Of a DNA stretch of 36,231 bases, positions 2,113 through 17,684 are shown piece by piece. The position numbers and the translations under genes were made by a program. Origin of the DNA: Candidatus Sungiibacteriota bacterium (lineage in GTDB: Bacteria; Patescibacteriota; Minisyncoccia; Sungbacterales; SURF-37); the NCBI GenBank assembly GCA_016203665.1, contig JACQMJ010000004.1:134214-170444 (forward strand), written 5' to 3'. The notes beneath the pieces were generated by a model. It ran no database searches and was not told the origin of the DNA. It saw only the letters and a program-made list of their open reading frames with translations. How positions within the stretch are numbered: the first letter of the stretch is position 1; every line of letters begins with the position of its first letter.

Positions 2113-3945
2113 TTAGGTTTGCGATTCGGTTTGATGGGCCTTTTCAAACTCCTCTTTGGCCTTCTTTATTAAGAGCAGTTGCTGCGGGTCGGAGGTGATG
2201 ACCTGGTCCTCGGTATAGGAGGCGACGACCTTGATGGCCACGTGCTTCAGCCCGGCAAAGAAGATGCCCTCCCCCACTTCGGACTCCAATAAAAGGAATT
2301 TTTCCTCATCGGTGAGGTTAAATATTTCCACGACCGAGGCGATGGTCGCCGGCGACTGGCGCAGCAGGAGCTGCATGGAGGAGTTGGTGACGATGGGCTT
2401 GCCGTAGGGCGAGCCCATGAAGTCGGCCACGTCCTGGGTGATGGTGGCCAGGCCCAAGAAATATTTTCGCGCGCGCTTGGCAATGCCGTAAAGAAAGGAT
2501 GCGCCGTCCTCGTAGCGCATAAGCCACCAGGCCTCGTCCACCACAAGCAGGCGCTTTTTTAATTCCGAGCGCACCAGGTTCCAGATGAAGTGGAGCACGA
2601 GGTACATGGCAATGGGGCGGAGCTCCTCTTCCATGTCGCGGATGGAGAAGACCACAAGGCGGTTTTTCACGTCCAGGTTCGTTTGCTGGTTGATGAACCC
2701 GGCCCAGGTGCCCTGGGTGTATTTTTTCAGGCGCACGGCAAGGTCTTCGCCGCCTTCGGTCGCAGCCAGCACGAGCTCGAGGTCGGAGAGCGTGGGCGGC
2801 ACGGCCGTCGCAAAGTCGCTGTCCGGCGTGATGTCGCGGGCGGCATAGGTTTCGGTGATGGCGTGGTCCAAAATGGCATCCTCCTGCGGGGAGAGCCCGC
2901 CCAGGAGGATGCGGAAGAACCCTATGAGGTTGATGATGTTGGAGCGCAGCACATCCGAAGGCGATTCATCCTCCCGCGGCACGGGCAGATCAAAGGGATT
3001 GATGTGGTTAGGCGAGGTGAGCGAGACGTTGAAGTAGGCGCCGCCGACGGTCTCGGCCAGGTACTGGTACTCGCGCTCAGGATCAATGATGACGACGTCA
3101 ATGCCGAACATGAGCGAACGCAGAACTTCAAGCTTCATGGCGTAGCTTTTGCCCGCGCCGGACACGGCGAACGTTACCGAGTTCGCGTTGGCCAGCGAGA
3201 AGCGGTCAAACAGCACCAGGGAATTATTGTGGCGGTTAATGCCGTAGAGGATGCCGCGGTTGGAGGTCAGGTCAAAGGAGACAAAGGGGAAGGTTGAGGA
3301 AATGGGGCCCGAGTTTAAGTAGGAATGGATGGCCAGGCGGTCGGTATTAAGGGGCAGTGCGGAATTAAAGCCCTCTTCCTGCTGAAAGAGTGCCGGCTTG
3401 ACGTAGACGAGTCTTGCCTCCAGCATTGAGCGTATTTCCGACTCCGCCTTATCCAGTTCCTCGGCCGTCTGGCCGTAGATGGAGATGTAGAGCCCGAAAT
3501 TAAAGAGGCGTTCCCGGGCCTGCTGCAATTTGTCGCGGAGCTCCTCCAGGTCGCGGTAGGCCGTGTCCAGGATGGGGTCGCGCACCAGCCCCTTTTCCTC
3601 GCGGAGCGAGATCTGCGACTGCACTCTCGCCACTTGCTTACGCAACTGCGAGAGGATGATGGCCGTATCCACCGGATGGACAAAGAAGGAAATGTCGAAA
3701 ACTTTGTCTAGATTGATGATGGGGGAAAACCAGTTCGTGGTCAGATAGCGCGGGTAGGAAAAGACAAATAGCGTGCGCACGAACTTCTCGCCCAGACGCA
3801 GGAAACTCGGATTTATTTCAAGCGCCGCCGGCGCGATGATGTCGCGGAGCGTCGTTACTCCGGCCTGATATATCTCCTCCGGGAACACCGGCGCGATTTC
3901 CAGGCCGGGTGCATCTTCTTTTTTTCGGAAAAATGGGAAGGCCAT
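2113..3945 (-). CDS. virB4: VirB4/ConE-like type IV secretion ATPase
   Basis: Walker A variant AVSGAGKS, IIDPEREY, HINPFD, Walker B VVDEAW, RARKY, TQDVADF. Confidence 0.92.
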   Translation of the reverse strand: MAFPFFRKKEDAPGLEIAPVFPEEIYQAGVTTLRDIIAPAALEINPSFLRLGEKFVRTLFVFSYPRYLTTNWFSPIINLDKVFDISFFVHPVDTAIILSQLRKQVARVQSQISLREEKGLVRDPILDTAYRDLEELRDKLQQARERLFNFGLYISIYGQTAEELDKAESEIRSMLEARLVYVKPALFQQEEGFNSALPLNTDRLAIHSYLNSGPISSTFPFVSFDLTSNRGILYGINRHNNSLVLFDRFSLANANSVTFAVSGAGKSYAMKLEVLRSLMFGIDVVIIDPEREYQYLAETVGGAYFNVSLTSPNHINPFDLPVPREDESPSDVLRSNIINLIGFFRILLGGLSPQEDAILDHAITETYAARDITPDSDFATAVPPTLSDLELVLAATEGGEDLAVRLKKYTQGTWAGFINQQTNLDVKNRLVVFSIRDMEEELRPIAMYLVLHFIWNLVRSELKKRLLVVDEAWWLMRYEDGASFLYGIAKRARKYFLGLATITQDVADFMGSPYGKPIVTNSSMQLLLRQSPATIASVVEIFNLTDEEKFLLLESEVGEGIFFAGLKHVAIKVVASYTEDQVITSDPQQLLLIKKAKEEFEKAHQTESQT

Positions 3946-4628
3946 TATGGGTGCTCGTTATTTTTTTCCTGGGCCGCGCGCTGGGTTTCTCCGGGGTTGT
4001 AAAGGCCGTAGAAGAGTTCAATCAGCTCCTCGGTATTCAGGCGCGCGACGCGCAGTCCCAGGCGCTTCATGGCGGCGGTTACGGTATCAACGCGCTGGGC
4101 GAGCTGGTTTGCTTCCTGTTCAAAATCGTTTCCATCCGCGGCGGTTCCTCCTTTGGGCGACCGGCCCAAAAGTCCGGATAGGCTTTTCAGGAATCCGCCG
4201 CCCCGCTCCATCATTGAGGGACTGAACGGTACCACGGCGAAAAATGTTTTTGTCACGATGCCCGTCATCTCCACGAATGACTTCACGAACTCCGCGTACT
4301 CGCCGATCTGCACTTTCAAAAGCTCGTTTTCCTCCTCTTTCTGGCGTTCGGCCAGCACCTCAAGGTACGGGCGGATGTTCAGCCGCCGCGATTGGATGAC
4401 GAGCTGCAGGGGAAAATCAAGCGCGTTTAGGAAGTTCTCGTACTGAAAAACTAGCGCATCCTGTTCCTCTTCTGATTTCAAGGCAAAGTTAAGTGAGGAT
4501 ACCATGAGAACGGCGCGGAGGCCCTGCCCGCCCTTCAGGACTATAACGCCGTCGCGGATGGAATCTATGGGCAGGAATTCCTGCGCGGCAGCGGCGGATT
4601 TGGATTTTTGCGCGGCACTTGGCGGCAT
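3945..4628 (-). CDS. VirB4-associated (TraC/VirB4 N-terminal-like) protein
   Basis: IRDGVIVLK, SSLNFALKSEEEQ, FPLQLVIQSRRL motifs; stop overlaps the virB4 start; lies between prgI and virB4. Confidence 0.75.
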   Translation of the reverse strand: MPPSAAQKSKSAAAAQEFLPIDSIRDGVIVLKGGQGLRAVLMVSSLNFALKSEEEQDALVFQYENFLNALDFPLQLVIQSRRLNIRPYLEVLAERQKEEENELLKVQIGEYAEFVKSFVEMTGIVTKTFFAVVPFSPSMMERGGGFLKSLSGLLGRSPKGGTAADGNDFEQEANQLAQRVDTVTAAMKRLGLRVARLNTEELIELFYGLYNPGETQRAAQEKNNEHP

Positions 4629-4634
4629 ATAATG

Positions 4635-5054
4635 CTAGCCCCTATCCTCCAGGCGCTCTTTAATATCAAGGCTCCAGGCCAGATCATCCAGTTTAGATTC
4701 CGACAGTTTCGGGATGCCGGCCAGCGGCGATGGCGGCGCAGGGGTAGGCGCTTTTTTAGGAATGAGCGGGGGCGGGGTTTTTCTCCAAAGGTAAAGACGG
4801 GGTTTTAGATAGTAGCCGATGGCTGCGGCGAGAATTGCCGGCAGCGGCCGATCGTTTATTTTCAGAAACGCCATGGCCACAAAGAGGCCAGCGACCGGCA
4901 GGGTGATCAGTATAAAGAGGATGAAGTGGAGGAGCGACCAGCCGATGAAGCCGATGGCCGCCGCGCCAAGGAGGTATAAAAACTGCTTTAAGGTCAGCGG
5001 CCCGATGATGCGGTCTTCAATGGTTATGAATTGGGGTACTTGGTATTGCTGCAT
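4635..5054 (-). CDS. prgI: PrgI family membrane protein
   Basis: MQQYQVPQFITIEDRIIGPLTLKQF, two TM segments, NDRP...PRLYLW. Start placed at ATG 5054. Confidence 0.88.
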   Translation of the reverse strand: MQQYQVPQFITIEDRIIGPLTLKQFLYLLGAAAIGFIGWSLLHFILFILITLPVAGLFVAMAFLKINDRPLPAILAAAIGYYLKPRLYLWRKTPPPLIPKKAPTPAPPSPLAGIPKLSESKLDDLAWSLDIKERLEDRG

Positions 5055-5092
5055 GGTGAAGATCAAGATGGTGAAGTGGTGAAATTGGTGAA
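5055..5092. repeat. Short-period (T)GGTGAA array, left arm of the inverted repeat around the four-helix-bundle gene
   Basis: ggtgaagatcaagatggtgaagtggtgaaattggtgaa; tggtgaaattggtgaa matches the reverse complement of 5478-5493 at 14/16. Confidence 0.8.
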
Positions 5093-5096
5093 CGTG

Positions 5097-5453
5097 TTAT
5101 TGTAGCAGCCGCTTTTCGAAAGCAATGATTTTAAAGTATTCCTCTTGGCACAGCGATCGAAGTATCTCGTAGTCCTCTTGAGGCACATATTTTTCCTCGA
5201 CCGCGATTTCCAGCGCGGTAAGGAGTTCGAGTAGTGAGCCGATAGCTCTCCTTAGGAAGAGCGAGAAGTCCTTTTTGCTCTTTCGCGAACTGCCCTCGGC
5301 TACATTTAAAGGAATAGAGGCGGCGGCACGCCGCATCTGTGAAGTTATTCCCCAAAGTTCTTCTCTGGGGAACTTTTTCGTGGTGCAGTACACCGCTTTT
5401 GTGATTTGGATTTCCAGCCGCCATATCTCAAGTTTTTCGAACGAATAGTGCAC
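5097..5453 (-). CDS. Four-helix-bundle protein (23S rRNA IVP / Avd-like family)
   Basis: SFEKLEIW...FPREELWGITSQMRRAAASIPLNVAEG...FLRRAIGSLLEL family signature. Start likely GTG 5453. Visibly lower GC than the flanks. Confidence 0.92.
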   Translation of the reverse strand: MHYSFEKLEIWRLEIQITKAVYCTTKKFPREELWGITSQMRRAAASIPLNVAEGSSRKSKKDFSLFLRRAIGSLLELLTALEIAVEEKYVPQEDYEILRSLCQEEYFKIIAFEKRLLQ

Positions 5454-5460
5454 AAACAAT

Positions 5461-5500
5461 TTTATCAAGCGCAGCGATTCATCAATTTCATCATTTGATC
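5461..5500. repeat. TTCATCA array, right arm of the inverted repeat around the four-helix-bundle gene
   Basis: tttatcaagcgcagcgattcatcaatttcatcatttgatc; overlaps the stop codon of the upstream gene (5499-5501). Confidence 0.8.
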
Positions 5501-6656
5501 ATTCCGGCGACTCTTTATACGGATCCACCTCGTATTTGTCCGGCGCTGGCGGCTTGGGAATTTTTTCCTGTGGCAGCTTTAAGGGTTTTGGTGCGGGCGT
5601 TGATGGCGGCGATTTCTTAATGCTATCTGCCATATGCTGTTGGCTATCTACCGCTGGCTGGCGGAATTTTTCTATCTCGCGTTGGAGCAGTTCTTTCGTG
5701 GTTGGCACCGCAGGCAGTACTCCTGGGCCGCTATCCGCTATCCTCTGTCCGCTATCCTCTTTCGGCGGCTTGGCTGTTGCGGCCGGCTGCGGCCTCTGCA
5801 AGGCGGCAAGTTCTTTTTCCATAGCGGCTTTAGCGCGGTCGTACGCGCTTGATGGCGGTGGAGGGGGTGGTCCCTCAACCCGGCTCGGGGCTGGCGGCTC
5901 GACTTTTGGAGTTTCCGGCTTTGGTTGGACAGTCGGCATTGTAGTCCGCGTTCCGAGCGGACTTATTATTGGCGGTGTAACTGGCGGTTTTGTCGCTTCC
6001 GACTTTTCAACCGGTTTTGGCGGCGGCTGGGTTGGTGCGGCTGACGGCCTTGGTGCGGGCGCTGCTGGTACGGGAGCCGGCTTTGCCGCGGGCGGCGGTA
6101 GCGGTAATTTTTCTGGTCGGATATCCGCTATCCGCTGTCCGTTGCCCGCCACACGTTCTCCGCTATCCCCTGTTTCTCGCGGTCGGGATGGAAGCGGATG
6201 GATAATGAGTGGCTCGGGTTTTTTAGGCATTGCGGCTTGCGGCGCCGGCTGTTCCAGTTTTGGCGGCGGCGGAGGCTGAACTGCGACGGGTGGCGGCATT
6301 GGAGTCGCGGCTGGAGTGTCTGTCCACTGGTTGCCGTATGCCCGCTTCAGCGCATCGCGGATTGGAAGAAATATGTTTTGATTGATGGCTGTTCCTAGTT
6401 CATCTGCTTTTTTAGAGTCGCCGGTTATTTCCGTGAGGTGAGTCAAGAGATCGGATGCTTTGACAAAGCCGAGCATGGCATAGCCGACGAGCTCAACGAC
6501 TTCGCCGACCTGGTCAATCGGCAGTCCCAGCTTTCGCCCGGCCTCAAAAATGATGCGCCCGGTTCGTTCGTCTTCAAATGCCTTTTCCAAATCATCGGGG
6601 AGCGCTTCCAGTCGGCGTTCAATTTCTTCCGTCTTTATGATGTTTGTGAGTCGCAT
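5499..6656 (-). CDS. Hypothetical protein: helical N-terminal domain, long Pro-rich region, C-terminal DPYKE motif
   Basis: 385-aa ORF in the operon with a Pro/Ala/Lys-rich linker; carries 7-bp periodic DNA insertions. Confidence 0.8.
   Translation of the reverse strand: MRLTNIIKTEEIERRLEALPDDLEKAFEDERTGRIIFEAGRKLGLPIDQVGEVVELVGYAMLGFVKASDLLTHLTEITGDSKKADELGTAINQNIFLPIRDALKRAYGNQWTDTPAATPMPPPVAVQPPPPPKLEQPAPQAAMPKKPEPLIIHPLPSRPRETGDSGERVAGNGQRIADIRPEKLPLPPPAAKPAPVPAAPAPRPSAAPTQPPPKPVEKSEATKPPVTPPIISPLGTRTTMPTVQPKPETPKVEPPAPSRVEGPPPPPPSSAYDRAKAAMEKELAALQRPQPAATAKPPKEDSGQRIADSGPGVLPAVPTTKELLQREIEKFRQPAVDSQQHMADSIKKSPPSTPAPKPLKLPQEKIPKPPAPDKYEVDPYKESPE
5620..6173. repeat. Three clusters of 7-bp CCGCTAT-type tandem repeats (5620-5654, 5728-5760, 6118-6173) within the CDS
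   Basis: For example ccgctat ccgctat cctctgt ccgctat, and ccgctat ccgctgt ccgttgc ccgccac acgttct ccgctat cccctgt. Confidence 0.8.
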
Positions 6657-6665
6657 AGAAGTTGA

Positions 6666-8729
6666 TTACGCGGTGCCGCCGCCAGGGGCTGGGGGCGGGG
6701 TTGGAGCCGGCGGAGGTTCAGGCGCCGGCTCGGTGCCTTTGGGCGATTTTTTGCCAAGGGCAATGCCGCGGGCGAGCCGGATATAGACGCCTTCCCTGTC
6801 GCGTATAGCCTCGGCAAGCGTGCGGTTTGATCTCGCAAGTTCGCCAAGGCCCGCGCCGAGACTGCCGCCGCCCATACCAGTGAGGAAGTCGCGCAGGGCC
6901 TCGGATTTCTCCCGGCTGTTGCCGATGGTCCTGAAGTCGTCAATGTCAACAACGCCTCTTGCCGTGATTGCGGCCTGCAGGTTGACGTTTGTTCTTATGT
7001 CGCTTGGCTGGATGCGGCTTTCCAGTTCTTTCTTTGTGGCGCTGCCGATCCAGCTGTTGAATGCATCTTGGAAGCGGGCAGTATTGGTACGCTCAATCTG
7101 TGTTTCCATTTCAACCAGCGAGGTGAGATCAGGGGCCGCTTCCGCGACCTTATCCTCTAGGTCAAACTTCTGCATGGCCTTGTAAAGATCCATGCGCTGG
7201 CGCGGTGTGGCCGTTTCCAATGAGAATGCCTGCTTTAGCTGATGCGGTTTCAGTTCGCGGATAAAGTCGGCTTTTTCCGAATCAGCCATGGTCCGCATGA
7301 GCTGCCAGCGGTACTCCGGCGACGCCTTTGAGGCCAAAGTACGACGTTTCAATGCGGCTTTTTCGCGGTCTTCCCGGATCTTTTGGCCAGCTGCCACCGC
7401 GGCCTCGGCTGGCCGGTTAGCCCAGCGCGTCCATCGGCTGCGTGCCAGCACGCCGCCAAGGCCAGTCGTGAGGTACTGCTGGGCAACCCGTCCGCCGATC
7501 ATCTTGCCCGTTCCCTTGGCCCAGCCGCCGGTGGCCTTAGCAATGCCCTTGCCCCACCCTGTTACCATGCCCGCGCCGGATATGGACATTTTTTCGGCGG
7601 CGATGAGCGAGCCAATCATGAGGGCGATGGCCAGGAAATACTGGAAGAAAACCGGGATGGGGTCAGTGGTGTTTCCGCCGACTGTAGCCGCGAGCTGGGC
7701 GCCGCCGGCAAGTGATACATAGAGGAAGAGCATGAAAGCCGGGAGGAAGAACGACCACTTGGCAAGTTTTTCCCACCAGTCGGTATAAAACTTGCGGGTA
7801 TAGGGCAGGATCATGGACAGGAACGCAAACGGCCCGAAGGCCAGGAGGAACATGAGCGAGACCTGGCGCACTATGATAAAAATTGTTCCGGCGAGGAGCA
7901 CGAAAATAAGAACCGGAGCGGCGAGCAACTGCAGGATTTTTATCTGGGTGGCGACAGATATGATCTCATCTCTTTTTATCGGGCGTTCGATTTGTCCAGT
8001 CTTTACCACGGCACCCTCTGCCTGAACTAACGTCTGCCCGGACGTTACAGCGCCTATTCTTGTCAGCGCTCCAATGCTGTTGTATATGGTCGCAGTCTGG
8101 TTTTTAGTGAGGCGGTTATAAAAAATATCAGAGATGCCATTGGAAAGATTTATGAAAGCGCCGCCAATGGCGAGGCTGAAATTGATGAAGAGCGCGGCGA
8201 TGATGAGCTTGGGCAGGAGCTGCTTTGCAGTATAGGGTTCAAAATCAAATATGGTGGCAATGGCGATCCAGAGCAGGATAAGCACGAAAGCCAGGTTAGC
8301 GACGCCAAGGGAAACGCCGAACCCGATGGTTACAAATCGTATTTGCCGCAAATCCACGCGGGCAAATTGCATGGCGAGATCAAATAACCAGCCCGCAAAA
8401 TTTACCAGCCAGCCGACAACCCAGTCAGCTAAAGTGTTTAAGATTGAGTAGAAGACGCAGCCAAATCCATCTGAATACCAGCTGCAGCCTGCGGCTTCGG
8501 CGGTAGGGTCAACCGGCGTTAAACCCCTCCCTGCGCCAGGTTGCCGCGCCGCCTCAAGCTCCTTTAACTGCGCTTGCTGCTCGGGAGTGATTGTCCCTTC
8601 TGCTTCAGTGGCCACGCGTTGGTCTTCCGGGGTTAGCTGGGCAGACGCCGGAGGAGCGTTAAATATCGCGGTGAGCAGCAAACTCGCGAGGAGGAAAGTT
8701 ACAACAGTGATACTTCGGCGCTGTTTCAT
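6666..8729 (-). CDS. VirB6/TrbL-like polytopic membrane protein
   Basis: Signal-like N-terminus; multiple TM segments with LPKLIIAALFINFS and IVRQVSLMFLLAFGPFAFLSMILP motifs; large soluble C-terminus; in the VirB4 operon. Confidence 0.8.
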   Translation of the reverse strand: MKQRRSITVVTFLLASLLLTAIFNAPPASAQLTPEDQRVATEAEGTITPEQQAQLKELEAARQPGAGRGLTPVDPTAEAAGCSWYSDGFGCVFYSILNTLADWVVGWLVNFAGWLFDLAMQFARVDLRQIRFVTIGFGVSLGVANLAFVLILLWIAIATIFDFEPYTAKQLLPKLIIAALFINFSLAIGGAFINLSNGISDIFYNRLTKNQTATIYNSIGALTRIGAVTSGQTLVQAEGAVVKTGQIERPIKRDEIISVATQIKILQLLAAPVLIFVLLAGTIFIIVRQVSLMFLLAFGPFAFLSMILPYTRKFYTDWWEKLAKWSFFLPAFMLFLYVSLAGGAQLAATVGGNTTDPIPVFFQYFLAIALMIGSLIAAEKMSISGAGMVTGWGKGIAKATGGWAKGTGKMIGGRVAQQYLTTGLGGVLARSRWTRWANRPAEAAVAAGQKIREDREKAALKRRTLASKASPEYRWQLMRTMADSEKADFIRELKPHQLKQAFSLETATPRQRMDLYKAMQKFDLEDKVAEAAPDLTSLVEMETQIERTNTARFQDAFNSWIGSATKKELESRIQPSDIRTNVNLQAAITARGVVDIDDFRTIGNSREKSEALRDFLTGMGGGSLGAGLGELARSNRTLAEAIRDREGVYIRLARGIALGKKSPKGTEPAPEPPPAPTPPPAPGGGTA

Positions 8730-16084: not shown

Positions 16085-17621
16085 GGGGCCGGTACTGCAG
16101 CGCTTCCAAAATGTGTGCCGGTTCAATTGTCTCCGCGCCGGCAAGGTCGGCAATGGTCCGGCTTACCTTCATGATGCGGTAGTAGGAGCGCACCGACAGC
16201 CCGAAGCGCTCGTAGGCCGCGCGCAGGACGTCGCGGCACGCCGGGTCTAGGCGGCAGAAATTTTTAAGTTCGCGGAGGGACATGGCGGCGTTCGTGGTCC
16301 TGCGAAGAGGACCCAAGCGCGTATACTGGCGGGCGCGCGCCGCCTCCACCCGTCCCCGGATGGCGGCGGCAACGCCATCCGCCTCGCTTGGCCCAGGCTC
16401 GCGCGAGGCGAGCGTTGGTCCCGGTTCAAGCTTCTCGGCCGCGACCGGCCCGACCTCAACCATGAGATCAATGCGATCCAAAAGCGGCCCGGAAATCCGA
16501 CGGCGGTAACGGGCAACGGCGCCCGGAGAACAGGCGCAGACGCGGATCGGATCCGTAAGGTATCCGCACGGGCAGGGGTTCATGGCGGCGACGAGCATAA
16601 AATCCGCAGGAAACGTCGCCGCACCCGCCGCGCGAATGATGGTGATGACCCGATCTTCCAGCGGCTGGCGGAGCGATTCCAGTACCTGGGCCGGAAATTC
16701 GGGCAGTTCATCCAGGAAGAGTACGCCGCGGTGTGCGAGCGTTACCTCGCCCGGCCGCACGCTCGGTCCGCCGCCGGTCATGGCTACGGCCGATGCGGTA
16801 TGGTGGGGGTTCCGGAACGGCCGCTCGCGGATGACCGCGCCGCGGTGCCGGAGCAGCCCGGCGACACTGGCAATTTTAGTAACCTCAATGATTTCCTCAC
16901 GGTTCAAGAGCGGCAGAATAGTCGCCAGCGAACGCGCCAGAATGGTTTTGCCTGTGCCGGGCGGGCCGGTGAGGAGAATATTATGACCGCCGGCGGCGGC
17001 GATCTCAAGAGCGCGCTTGGCGTGCTCCTGGCCGCGGATAAGTGCGAGATCCGGTGCATCGGCGGCGGCCGGGATGTTATCGCTGTGCTGCGTCGGCGGC
17101 AGCTCCCGCCGGCCTTCGAGGTCATCAAGGAGTGCGGAGAGATTCGGCGCTTCTTTGACCGTGAGTTCATCAATGAGTGTCGCCTCCGCGCCGTTGCCTG
17201 TTGGCACGTAGAGGGTTTTAAACCCGGCCAGACGTCCGAGGATGGCAATGGCCAGCACTCCTGCGACCGGCCGCAGACCGCCGTCGAGCGCCAGCTCCCC
17301 AACAAAGAGTTTTCCCGCCGGTTGAAAGCGCGCCTGGCCCGAGGCCAGGAGGAAAGCCAGCGCAATCGGCAGGTCAAAGGCCGGGCCCTCCTTGCGGATG
17401 TCGGCCGGCGCCAGGTTTACGATGACGCGCTCCGATTTTTTATGCGGCGGCCGTGCGCCGATATTGCGGATGGCCGATCCAATGCGATCCCGCGATTCCT
17501 GTACTTCGCGATCGGCCAGGCCGACGATGGAAAACAAATGCAGGCCGGGCGAGAGGTCAACTTCAATGGCTATGGGTGTTGCATCAAGGCCGACGACCTG
17601 GGCCGAATACAATGTGACCAT
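16071..17621 (-). CDS. comM: ComM/YifB family Mg-chelatase-like AAA+ ATPase
   Basis: [80 protein letters not shown]. Confidence 0.95.
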
Positions 17622-17684
17622 GACAATGACTATGACGATGACAAGCTTCTACAGGGTCATCGTTATGGTCATGGTCGCCGTCAC
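17614..17684. repeat. 5+5 inverted hexamer (ATGACN) array covering the comM start
   Basis: gtgacc atgaca atgact atgacg atgaca, 11-nt spacer, ggtcat cgttat ggtcat ggtcgc cgtcac. Confidence 0.85.

What the first reader, a model, noticed from the sequence alone, without database searches (positions are those of the whole stretch)
5055..5501. Four-helix-bundle gene in an inverted-repeat cassette fitted exactly between a stop and a start codon
Seen: an AT-richer four-helix-bundle gene interrupts the T4SS-like operon. It is framed by short-period arrays in opposite orientation: tggtgaaattggtgaa matches the reverse complement of 5478-5493 at 14/16, and both arms carry a GATCAA motif at or near the outer end. 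One arm starts at the upstream gene's TGA; the other runs directly into the prgI ATG (ttcaccATG). Known: this family includes proteins encoded in 23S rRNA intervening sequences and is structurally related to the DGR accessory protein Avd; it has no known transposase activity. Inference: a small mobile or excisable cassette whose arms pair in RNA or ssDNA and loop the gene out without disturbing the operon. This is the best candidate for an undescribed system here.
Basis: partly seen in the sequence, partly recalled or inferred. Interest (0 to 1): 0.85.

Follow-up and report, generated by a model that had tools for sequence, protein, structure and literature searches.

The report
Hairpin-framed four-helix-bundle gene cassette
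A small gene of the kind found inside ribosomal-RNA intervening sequences sits here between two genes of a secretion operon, framed by mirror-image arrays of short repeats; the same framed cassette recurs in many bacteria, which points to a widespread and little-described insertion element.

Summary
A PF05635/TIGR02436 four-helix-bundle (4HB) gene (5097-5468, minus strand) fills the spacer between a proline-rich gene and prgI. It is framed by inverted short-period arrays (25-nt arms, 80% complementary; 5 of 1000 shuffles do as well). It is one case of a general architecture. In 40 same-order relatives, 77 of 93 4HB genes have inverted flanks above the 95th percentile of control genes. The figure is 22 of 30 in a held-out phylum sample and 9 of 14 on named plasmids of other phyla. 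Seven relatives carry the cassette in the 16S rRNA gene, so it is the classical rRNA intervening sequence (IVS) element lodged in an operon spacer. Filled and empty alleles coexist within the genus. The prgI-site cassettes are polyphyletic (AU p=0.0001), whereas the nusG-rplK cassettes form one old, conserved clade. A second cargo, a GxxExxY/PD-(D/E)XK protein, uses the same architecture (21 of 23), and gene-less hairpins also occur. Excision, RNA processing and mobility are not shown. This copy's arms pair poorly in the sense RNA, no empty junction was seen in the reads, and no RNA data were available.

The parts
5478..5502 (-). Arm that lies 5' in the transcript. It is an array of about 3 units (TGATGAA-type, period 8) and overlaps the TGA stop of the upstream gene (5499-5501).
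   Evidence: Inverted repeat I1; TRF 5478-5503, period 8, 3.1 copies; sequence.
5097..5468 (-). Four-helix-bundle protein gene (23S rRNA IVS protein / S23p / Avd-like family), 123 aa from a TTG start. A GTG five codons further in is an alternative start.
   Evidence: PF05635 E=4.4e-31; TIGR02436 E=6.7e-28; PDB 2gsc (XCC0516) E=8.6e-21. It keeps the invariant Q40, N51, E54, E77 and the near-invariant R43, S47 of alignment A1.
5055..5096 (-). Arm that lies 3' in the transcript. It is an array of TGGTGAA-type units (period 8-9). The inverted-repeat core is 5068-5092. A further unit plus GATCAA at 5055-5066 runs into the prgI ATG.
5499..6656 (-). Upstream operon gene: a proline-rich 385-aa protein with no Pfam match. 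Its C-terminal tail DPYKESPE is conserved as DPY(R/K)E in relatives.
4635..5054 (-). Downstream operon gene, a PrgI-family protein (139 aa from the ATG at 5054).
   Evidence: PF12666 E=2e-9; 35 of 41 related genomes have a homolog.

Best explanation
The cassette is an IVS-type hairpin element. It consists of a gene for a small, probably pentameric nucleic-acid-binding four-helix-bundle protein, enclosed by two inverted arrays of short tandem repeats, about 447 nt in all.

Elements of this build lodge in transcribed spacers in the sense orientation: rRNA helices, tRNA clusters, and here the gap between two cistrons of a T4SS-like operon. They therefore ride on the host transcript without a promoter or terminator of their own.

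Over evolutionary time they are gained, lost and replaced at the same spacers. Some lineages, such as the paralog between nusG and rplK, are old vertical residents under strong purifying selection. The arms turn over quickly but in concert.

Inferred, not shown: after transcription the arms pair and the stem is cut by RNase III, as shown for rRNA IVSs. That would release the 4HB message and separate the flanking cistrons. The protein probably acts on its own repeat arrays. How the element inserts is unknown.
For: Anatomy:
- The cassette is 447 nt with 25-nt arms and a sense-oriented S23p-family ORF. The Coxiella IVS is 428-444 nt with a 28-bp terminal stem and an S23p ORF, and is cut by RNase III (PMC4990558, passages).
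- No promoter-like site and no minus-strand terminator-like site lies inside the cassette.

Generality:
- Inverted-flank score has a median of 33 in 93 4HB genes and 14 in 130 control genes. 77 of 93 exceed the control 95th percentile, Mann-Whitney p=1.4e-30. Direct-orientation scores show no difference (5 of 93).
- In a held-out phylum sample, 22 of 30 4HB genes exceed that threshold, against 2 of 52 controls.
- On named plasmids of Cyanobacteriota, Bacteroidota and Pseudomonadota, 9 of 14 exceed it.

Link to rRNA IVS:
- 7 relatives carry the cassette in or at the 5' part of the 16S rRNA gene, all in sense orientation.
- An Azospirillum plasmid copy is flanked by what I read as 23S rRNA sequence; that identification is by eye and recall, with no Rfam run on that locus.

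Transcribed-spacer habit:
- 63 of 95 4HB ORFs have both neighbours co-directional, and 4 of 95 have both opposed.
- Named examples: cas6-[4HB]-cas4, an AAA-family ATPase gene-[4HB]-parB, RND adaptor-[4HB]-permease, cmr2-[4HB]-cmr3. PMC3936711 reports 18 such genes in cas loci (passage).

Gain, loss and replacement:
- Same-genus G002 has an empty 17-nt spacer.
- 4HB lies immediately upstream of prgI in 9 of 35 genomes.
- Monophyly of those 9 is rejected (AU p=0.0001).
- G000 versus G001: PrgI 67% identical but 4HB 29%.

Functional protein:
- dS is saturated in 9 of 10 close pairs while dN is 0.10-0.21. dN/dS is 0.04 in the one measurable pair.
- The nusG-rplK 4HB is 82% identical between two families, against 79% for L11.

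Concerted arms:
- Orthologous cassettes have unrelated arm units that still match their partner arm.
- One unit change is mirrored in both arms: GCCAACAG/CTGTTGGC versus GCCAATAG/CTATTGGC.

RNase III (PF14622) is present in 36 of 41 relatives.
Against: - This copy's arms are weak as sense RNA. Four of 5 mismatches are A-C in the transcript and G-U only on the antisense strand. The 120-nt flank duplex is -34.4 kcal/mol (z = +0.6) in sense and -64.1 (z = -1.1) in antisense.
- Across 77 cassettes, wobble-type mismatches show no strand bias: 89 sense against 77 antisense, p=0.39, plus 191 transversions. Sense-strand energies are only slightly better (56 of 93, p=0.02). The complementarity is therefore not demonstrably selected at the RNA level and could be maintained in DNA.
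- RNase III was not found in this genome, which is 78.6% complete.
- There is no direct sign of current mobility. No near-identical paralogs occur (maximum 78% amino-acid identity within a genome). No cassette-less junction appears in 4 DNA runs of one study, which are probably the source sample. I saw no target-site duplication.
- The nusG-rplK lineage is monophyletic (SH-aLRT 100) and as conserved as a ribosomal protein. That fits a host function as well as a selfish element.
- 16 of 93 and 8 of 30 cassettes lack strong inverted flanks. Two of 14 named cases (Pseudanabaena, Gemmatirosa) have direct arrays rather than inverted ones.
Confidence: 0.55

Rival explanations
1. A protein-repeat recognition system in the manner of REPIN-RAYT. 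The arms are arrays of binding sites for the cassette's own protein (4HB pentamer or GxxExxY nuclease-fold protein). The gene-carrying copy is the master of a small family of gene-less hairpins with like units. The stem is secondary, and spread or maintenance happens at the DNA level. This overlaps with the best explanation rather than excluding it.
For: - Arm units are cassette-specific and differ among paralogs within one genome.
- Units are similar in cassettes with similar proteins: G001 and G011 have 70% identical proteins and the same TTAAGTRAA-type units.
- Gene-less periodic hairpins occur in this genome: window 17614-17684 and C1:36739-36854, whose units resemble the L002 arms.
- C2:8800-8880 and C2:21905-21970 have TGATGAA/TGGTGAA-like units, and one abuts an ATG.
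- 21 of 23 stand-alone PF13366 genes have the same architecture, with a shared CGAAT-type unit. Gene-less spacer hairpins with GCGAAT/CCAAT units occur in relatives.
- There is no RNA-strand bias in arm mismatches.
- Direct-orientation arrays in 2 named cases fit binding sites better than a stem.
Against: - No binding was tested.
- The gene-less look-alikes in G000 are few and were matched by eye or by 7-mers with one mismatch. No chance control was run.
- The 4HB family has no known sequence-specific binding or catalytic activity.
- Shared descent alone explains why similar proteins have similar arms.
- REPIN-RAYT is recalled from memory and was not read here.
Confidence: 0.2
2. A vertically inherited host module. 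The 4HB gene is an ordinary operon member, for example an RNA chaperone or regulator. The flanking hairpin is an intercistronic processing or stability signal, and patchiness reflects repeated loss only.
For: - The nusG-rplK cassettes form one clade spanning families f1, f2, f3 and f5.
- They are as conserved as L11.
- Purifying selection is strong.
- There are no recent duplicates.
- The gene lies in sense orientation between co-directional genes in 63 of 95 cases.
Against: - Monophyly of the nine prgI-site genes is rejected (AU p=0.0001, likelihood drop 127.6).
- 4HB and PrgI identities are decoupled.
- Copy number runs from 0 to 11 within one genus and from 0 to 15 across the phylum.
- The same build sits inside 16S rRNA genes and in unrelated operons on plasmids of other phyla.
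- A different cargo occupies the same two spacers in other genomes.
Confidence: 0.15
3. A MITE- or IS-like DNA transposon with terminal inverted repeats, mobilised in trans by a transposase encoded elsewhere.
For: Terminal inverted repeats are present. Filled and empty sites exist. Gene-less hairpin relatives occur.
Against: - Arms differ from cassette to cassette within a genome, so one transposase would have no shared end to recognise.
- No target-site duplication is visible at the filled versus empty prgI alleles.
- No near-identical copies exist.
- No reverse transcriptase was found in the genome. Transposases were not searched for.
Confidence: 0.05
4. Chance low-complexity sequence around an ordinary small gene.
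For: The arms in this copy are short (25 nt with 5 mismatches). Their compositional complementarity keeps shuffled energies high.
Against: - 5 of 1000 shuffles reach the window's score, and 0 of 1000 reach the paralog's.
- The family-wide excess holds in three independent samples.
Confidence: 0.02

Closest known systems
23S rRNA intervening sequence (IVS) with an S23p ORF, as characterised in Coxiella and reported for Leptospira, Xanthomonas and Brucella (PMC4990558; abstract and passages read)
   Same: It carries a homologous ORF (PF05635) in sense orientation and is about 430-450 nt long. Terminal inverted repeats enclose the ORF. Distribution is sporadic, suggesting horizontal gain. Relatives of this genome carry the same cassette inside 16S rRNA genes.
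   Different: This copy sits between two protein-coding cistrons, not in an rRNA helix. The arms are arrays of short tandem repeats. Unlike the Coxiella ORF, which the paper describes as decaying, the protein here is under strong purifying selection. RNase III excision is untested here.
Insertion sequences in rRNA genes of CPR bacteria (10.1101/2024.02.27.582315 and PMC11270868; passages read)
   Same: That survey found 23S_rRNA_IVP ORFs in both 16S and 23S rRNA insertions of this phylum, scattered over several sites, along with ORF-less insertions at the same sites.
   Different: The passages I read deal with rRNA genes only. They say nothing of cassettes in protein operons or of periodic inverted arms. 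Its supplementary tables were not available to me.
23S_rRNA_IVP genes inside cas operons (PMC3936711; passage read)
   Same: It reports 18 family members within cas loci, for example between cmr3 and cmr2. I saw the same context in Picosynechococcus, Anabaena and Pseudanabaena plasmids.
   Different: The paper reads them as a CRISPR-associated function. It does not mention flanking repeat arrays or treat them as insertions.
Avd, the accessory protein of diversity-generating retroelements (PMC10053308; passage read)
   Same: Same four-helix-bundle fold family; PF05635 resembles Avd.
   Different: No reverse transcriptase was found in this genome, and I saw no template or variable repeat pair. 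It is not a DGR.
REPIN-RAYT systems and free-standing homing endonuclease genes
   Same: A gene is flanked by inverted repeats that also occur as gene-less intergenic hairpins. Insertion falls precisely between conserved genes, with filled and empty alleles. A nuclease-fold cargo (GxxExxY/PDDEXK_3) is found in the sister cassettes.
   Different: The 4HB cargo has no known catalytic activity. Arm units are cassette-specific, not genome-wide. Copy numbers of gene-less hairpins appear small.
Short tandemly repeated repetitive (STRR) heptamers of heterocystous cyanobacteria (recalled; searches found no paper linking them to this gene family)
   Same: The arms of the Nostoc, Aulosira, Anabaena and Calothrix cassettes are tandem heptamers.
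   Different: Whether these arrays are what the literature calls STRR was not tested.

Membership tests
PF05635 / TIGR02436 four-helix-bundle protein (23S rRNA IVS protein, S23p) | Profile match above the curated cut-off | tested here: met
   PF05635 scores 107.7 bits against a cut-off of 33.8. TIGR02436 scores 97.1 against 24.
PF05635 / TIGR02436 four-helix-bundle protein (23S rRNA IVS protein, S23p) | Conserved RxxxSxxxNxxE motif (given as GxxRxxxSxxxNxxE in PMC3936711) | tested here: met
   R43, S47, N51 and E54 are present in the window protein and invariant or nearly so in 38 sequences. The first motif position is Q40 here, not G.
PF05635 / TIGR02436 four-helix-bundle protein (23S rRNA IVS protein, S23p) | Relation to a solved four-helix-bundle pentamer | tested here: met
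   2gsc (XCC0516) matches with E=8.6e-21 over residues 10-116. Its pentameric state is taken from the PMC4990558 passage. No structure was predicted here.
rRNA intervening sequence (IVS) element | Terminal inverted repeats enclosing a sense-oriented S23p ORF, about 430-450 nt in all | tested here: met
   447 nt with 25-nt arms, 80% complementary. 5 of 1000 shuffles do as well.
rRNA intervening sequence (IVS) element | Located in a helix of an rRNA gene | tested here: not met
   This copy lies between two protein genes. Seven cassettes in relatives do lie in or at the 16S rRNA gene.
rRNA intervening sequence (IVS) element | Excised from the transcript by RNase III | not testable with these tools
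   No RNA run was listed. RNase III is present in 36 of 41 relatives but was not found in this 78.6%-complete genome.
Diversity-generating retroelement (Avd role) | Adjacent reverse transcriptase and template/variable repeat pair | tested here: not met
   PF00078 has no match in the genome. The neighbours are T4SS-like genes.
MITE / IS-type transposon | Terminal repeats shared among copies, target-site duplication, near-identical copies | tested here: not met
   Arms are cassette-specific. The maximum within-genome protein identity is 78%. No duplication is visible at the filled versus empty prgI alleles.
REPIN-RAYT-like master plus gene-less hairpins | Gene-less hairpins with the same repeat units dispersed in the same genome | tested here: inconclusive
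   There are a few candidates: C1:36739-36854, C2:8800-8880, C2:21905-21970 and window 17614-17684. Similarity was judged by 7-mer clusters and by eye, with no chance control.

The most novel reading that the evidence does not exclude
The window shows one member of a widespread, so far undescribed class of 'hairpin cassettes'. Each is a small cargo gene, either an Avd-like four-helix-bundle protein or a GxxExxY PD-(D/E)XK-fold protein, framed by inverted arrays of short tandem repeats that the cargo protein itself recognises. The cassettes colonise transcribed spacers (rRNA helices, tRNA clusters, protein operons, cas and partition operons) across at least four phyla. They leave gene-less hairpins behind. 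On this reading, classical rRNA intervening sequences and possibly cyanobacterial STRR arrays are special cases of the class.
Probability: 0.3. Interest if true: 0.85.

Novelty: new variant of a known kind. Interest (0 to 1): 0.7.

Why it matters
The origin, spread and purpose of rRNA intervening sequences and of their conserved ORF are still described as unclear in the paper I read (PMC4990558). This window and its relatives show four things:
- The same element is not tied to rRNA. It lives in ordinary operons.
- Its protein is strongly conserved.
- Its arms are fast-evolving repeat arrays that stay matched.
- A nuclease-fold protein family uses the same frame.

That turns an rRNA curiosity into a general, testable element class. 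Examples occur in culturable cyanobacteria such as Picosynechococcus PCC 7003, Anabaena sp. 90 and Nostoc.

It also warns annotators that these genes inside cas, par, efflux or secretion operons are probably insertions, not functional partners of those systems.

Tried and rejected
- **Reads.** One search listed 4 DNA runs of one groundwater study, probably the source sample. No RNA holder was listed. Laying them gave only Logan contigs. All spanning contigs carry the filled form, and no joint skips the cassette. The one joint listed (4685 to 5013) and the loose ends belong to contigs of another organism at 90-95% likeness. One of these shows that organism's own empty prgI spacer. This is no evidence either way on excision or expression.
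- **RNA-strand test.** I looked for G-U versus A-C asymmetry to decide which strand folds and found no bias. A weak sense preference in duplex energy (56 of 93) was noted.
- **First energy metric.** RNAduplex over 120-nt flanks separated 4HB genes from controls (median -55.3 against -38.9, p=1e-13). However, that control set still held a few duplicate 4HB genes. I replaced it with the alignment score, with duplicates removed.
- **Wider search.** I used tblastn on plasmids and a phylum sample instead.
- **Genome-wide ungapped inverted-repeat scan of G000**. It found 37 repeats, mostly terminator-like. The two 4HB cassettes fall below its threshold. Three other genes enclosed by repeats are a Trp-repressor-like, a PaaX-like and a UPF0102 protein. 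Their arms are not periodic, so I treat them as unrelated.
- **DGR reading:** rejected.
- **Transposon reading:** rejected.
- **Arms as promoters or terminators:** nothing on the minus strand within the cassette.
- **Not done.** No structure or complex prediction was run. The PDB sequence match sufficed for the fold, and no tool here tests protein-nucleic-acid binding.
- **Literature.** Eight searches found no paper describing this family's genes as hairpin-framed cassettes in operons, their periodic arms, or a GxxExxY counterpart. The library lacks most subscription journals. PMC47033 (the 1993 IVS paper) is not held, and supplements are closed, so prior description cannot be excluded.
Full report
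**What is there**

The genes around the finding lie on the minus strand and form a T4SS-like cluster.
- A 687-aa protein occupies 6666-8729.
- A proline-rich 385-aa protein occupies 5499-6656 and has no Pfam match.
- A 123-aa four-helix-bundle (4HB) protein occupies 5097-5468.
- A PrgI-family protein occupies 4635-5054.
- A 227-aa protein occupies 3945-4628.
- A VirB4-like ATPase occupies 2113-3945.

The 4HB protein matches PF05635 (E=4.4e-31), TIGR02436 (E=6.7e-28) and the solved XCC0516 chain 2gsc (E=8.6e-21).

The spacer on each side of the 4HB gene consists of short-period arrays in opposite orientation. The arms 5068-5092 and 5478-5502 are 25 nt long and 80% complementary. TRF reports period 8-9 with about 3 copies on each side. 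The outer arm overlaps the upstream TGA, and the other arm runs into the prgI ATG. GC content is lower across the cassette. The flank-to-flank inverted score of 25 is reached by 5 of 1000 dinucleotide shuffles.

**The paralog**

The assembly has 451,557 bases in 9 contigs and is 78.6% complete. It holds one more PF05635 gene, in locus L002. That gene lies between nusG and rplK. It is also framed by inverted periodic arrays with GGTTATTGGTT-type units, which are unrelated to the window's TGGTGAA-type units. No shuffle out of 1000 reaches its score. The MFE folds pair the flanks in both loci.

**The family in relatives**

In 40 genomes of the same order plus this one, PF05635 is found in 32 of 41, with 0 to 11 matches per genome. 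I fetched the flanks of these hits and found 95 distinct ORFs with a locally built profile. 93 of them have both flanks available.

I scored the local alignment of 100 nt upstream against the reverse complement of 100 nt downstream.
- The median is 33 for 4HB genes and 14 for 130 other genes in the same loci.
- 77 of 93 exceed the control 95th percentile (23), with Mann-Whitney p=1.4e-30.
- The same score in direct orientation shows no excess (5 of 93, p=0.76).
- Periodicity in both flanks is raised: 40 of 93 lie above the control 95th percentile, p=5e-21.

The arms abut the gene and are specific to each cassette, even among paralogs within one genome.

A held-out sample took one locus from each of 30 genomes spread over the phylum, where 80 of 151 genomes have the family. 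It gave 22 of 30 4HB genes above the same threshold, against 2 of 52 controls.

tblastn on plasmids found 33 records, mostly cyanobacterial. Of the 14 I read:
- 9 have inverted arrays above the threshold;
- 2 (Pseudanabaena, Gemmatirosa) have direct arrays;
- 3 have none.

**Where the cassettes sit**

- 63 of 95 have both neighbours co-directional, with gaps of some tens of bases. 4 of 95 are opposed to both neighbours.
- Rfam places 7 cassettes in or at the 5' part of a 16S rRNA gene, all in the rRNA's sense. One cassette lies between tRNA genes. A second batch of 20 loci gave no Rfam match.
- An Azospirillum plasmid copy is flanked by what I read as 23S rRNA sequence. That identification is by eye and recall; no Rfam run was made on that locus.
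- Named operon contexts include cas6-[4HB]-cas4, an AAA-family ATPase gene-[4HB]-parB, RND adaptor-[4HB]-permease and cmr2-[4HB]-cmr3.
- A 2013 survey counted 18 family members in cas loci (PMC3936711, passage).

The anatomy equals that of the classical IVS: 428-444 nt, a 28-bp terminal stem, an S23p ORF in sense orientation, and cutting by RNase III (PMC4990558, passages). A survey of CPR rRNA insertions found this ORF family in 16S and 23S insertions (passages).

**History at the prgI site**

PrgI is found in 35 of 41 genomes. Comparing coordinates, a 4HB gene lies immediately upstream of prgI in 9 of those 35. The nine are G000, G001 and G003 of this genus, plus G011, G014, G017, G025, G038 and G039 from other genera and families.

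G002, of the same genus and 96% complete, has no PF05635 match at all. There a 17-nt spacer separates the conserved ...DPYKELPE stop from the prgI ATG.

The 30 spacers I read break down as follows:
- 9 are filled with a 4HB cassette.
- 7 are 0-17 nt long.
- 11 are 48-272 nt long, lack the gene and fold into hairpins.
- One (G013) holds a gene-less periodic hairpin, judged by eye.
- One (G005) holds a GxxExxY pseudogene.
- One lies at a contig end.

On a maximum-likelihood tree of 93 proteins, the nine prgI-site genes need 8 changes of label, no fewer than shuffled labels. Holding them together costs 127.6 log-likelihood units, and the AU test gives p=0.0001. Identities are decoupled. G000 against G001 gives PrgI 67% and 4HB 29%. 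G001 against G011 gives 61% and 70%. The spacer has therefore been occupied more than once, or its cassette has been replaced.

**History at the nusG-rplK site**

Here the cassettes form one clade (SH-aLRT 100) spanning four families. The G000 and G033 proteins are 82% identical, whereas L11 is 79% identical. Of 30 spacers read, 4 are filled (plus G013 and G017 from the earlier set), 8 are 1-32 nt, 15 are longer without a 4HB gene, and 3 are unresolved. This lineage looks old and vertically kept, with losses.

**Selection and arms**

In 9 of 10 close pairs dS is saturated while dN is 0.10-0.21. The one measurable pair gives dN/dS of 0.04. The maximum identity between paralogs within a genome is 78%, so there is no recent burst of copies.

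Orthologous cassettes carry unrelated arm units that still match their own partner arm. In one close pair, a single base change in the unit is mirrored in the other arm and across the tandem copies. Arm mismatches show no RNA-strand bias: 89 sense-wobble, 77 antisense-wobble and 191 transversions in 77 cassettes. The complementarity may therefore be kept at the DNA level. Template switching in quasi-palindromes is a known route, which I recall from memory. Alternatively it is kept by selection for a stem that tolerates mismatches.

**A second cargo and gene-less forms**

In G038 and G039 the nusG-rplK spacer holds a different gene, a GxxExxY / PDDEXK_3 protein (PF13366 E=8e-22 and 2e-20; TIGR04256). 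In G038 it sits between (CACAGAT)n-type inverted arrays.

PF13366 occurs in 17 of 41 relatives and was not found in G000. 21 of 23 stand-alone genes have inverted flanks above the threshold (median 36), with CGAAT-type units. Several lie next to prgI. The family's function is listed as unknown (PMC3424549, table row).

Gene-less periodic hairpins fill spacers in this genome:
- window 17614-17684;
- C1:36739-36854;
- two candidates with TGATGAA/TGGTGAA-like units on contig C2.

**How it most likely works**

Shown:
- the anatomy and its generality;
- sense residence in transcribed spacers;
- the link to rRNA IVSs;
- gain, loss and replacement at one site, and long vertical residence at another;
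- purifying selection on the protein;
- concerted turnover of the arms.

Inferred:
- The cassette is transcribed as part of the operon. No promoter- or terminator-like site lies on the minus strand within it.
- The arms pair, and RNase III cuts the stem as in rRNA IVSs. RNase III is present in 36 of 41 relatives but was not found in this incomplete genome.
- The protein probably acts on its own arrays.

Against the RNA step for this particular copy: 4 of 5 mismatches are A-C in the sense RNA, and the sense duplex is no better than shuffles. The means of insertion is unknown. No transposase-like feature, reverse transcriptase, target duplication or recent copy was seen.

**Novelty**

The gene family, the rRNA IVS and incidental sightings in cas loci are already in print. 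In eight searches I found no account of three things:
- these genes as framed cassettes in protein operons;
- the short-period, fast-evolving, matched arms;
- the GxxExxY sister cassettes.

The library lacks most subscription journals, the 1993 IVS paper is not held and supplements are closed, so earlier description cannot be ruled out. I rate the finding a new variant of a known kind.

Noticed in passing
window 17614-17684: A gene-less hairpin whose arms are short-period arrays (ATGAC-type units). It lies in the spacer between two minus-strand genes. The plus strand folds at -37 kcal/mol (z = -4.7) and the minus strand at -30.9 (z = -2.4).
   Followed up: partly
L141 335-458 (G000:C1:36734-36857): A 124-nt spacer between two co-directional genes is filled entirely by a gene-less periodic hairpin. 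Its units (GGTTTTT/AGTT-type) resemble the arms of the nusG-rplK cassette of the same genome.
   Followed up: partly
G000:C2:8800-8880 and G000:C2:21905-21970: Two short hairpin-like stretches have TGATGAA/TGGTGAA-like units similar to the window cassette's arms. The second ends in ...tttcaccATG, like the prgI junction. No chance control was run.
   Followed up: partly
L195 1956-2396 (G038), L184 1939-2328 (G039); loci L202-L231: GxxExxY / PDDEXK_3 (PF13366, TIGR04256) genes occupy the same spacers (nusG-rplK and next to prgI) in other genomes. 21 of 23 stand-alone copies have inverted periodic arms with CGAAT-type units. This is a second cargo family with the same architecture.
   Followed up: partly
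L202, L203, L205, L206, L207, L210, L220, L226: In 8 loci the PF13366 domain lies inside a large open frame of 518-896 aa, at residues about 86-205, 234-353 or 457-578. This may be a fusion or an in-frame insertion. I did not examine it.
   Followed up: no
G000: C2:20200-20320, C3:30065-30106, C5:21119-21287, C5:115757-115858: A 17-20-nt inverted repeat (ACCCCGTTACAACCCGG-type arms) recurs at four places in the genome with loops of 2-135 nt. It is a different, REP-like repeat family.
   Followed up: no
window 5728-5760 and 6122-6141: 7-nt tandem repeats (CCGCTAT / TATCCGC) lie inside the coding region of the proline-rich upstream gene and encode repeated GQRIAD-like stretches. A 31-base contig of depth 110 in run X3 matches 5729-5757.
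   Followed up: no
L014, L016, L012 (prgI spacers of G008, G004, G026); L175, L183, L191 (nusG-rplK spacers of G007, G008, G015): Long gene-less spacers of 112-272 nt are strongly folded and share a conserved 3' end (...aacattggc or ...aaatttcgacaaa before the start codon). This suggests another structured spacer element that uses the same two sites.
   Followed up: no
L085 (G039): The 16S rRNA gene that carries a 4HB cassette near its 5' end also holds a group I intron (RF00028, 58.9 bits).
   Followed up: no
L125 (Pseudanabaena galeata plasmid), L126 (Gemmatirosa plasmid): Here the arrays on the two sides of the 4HB gene are in direct orientation, not inverted ((AAAAGCTA)n / (AAAAGCCA)n, direct score 125; (CTCCTGCC)n, score 48). 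A stem cannot be the whole story for these copies.
   Followed up: partly
L138 334-843, L139 386-934, L140 347-784 (G000): Three ordinary genes (Trp-repressor-like, PaaX-like, UPF0102) are each enclosed by a 21-24-nt non-periodic inverted repeat 477-560 nt apart.
   Followed up: partly
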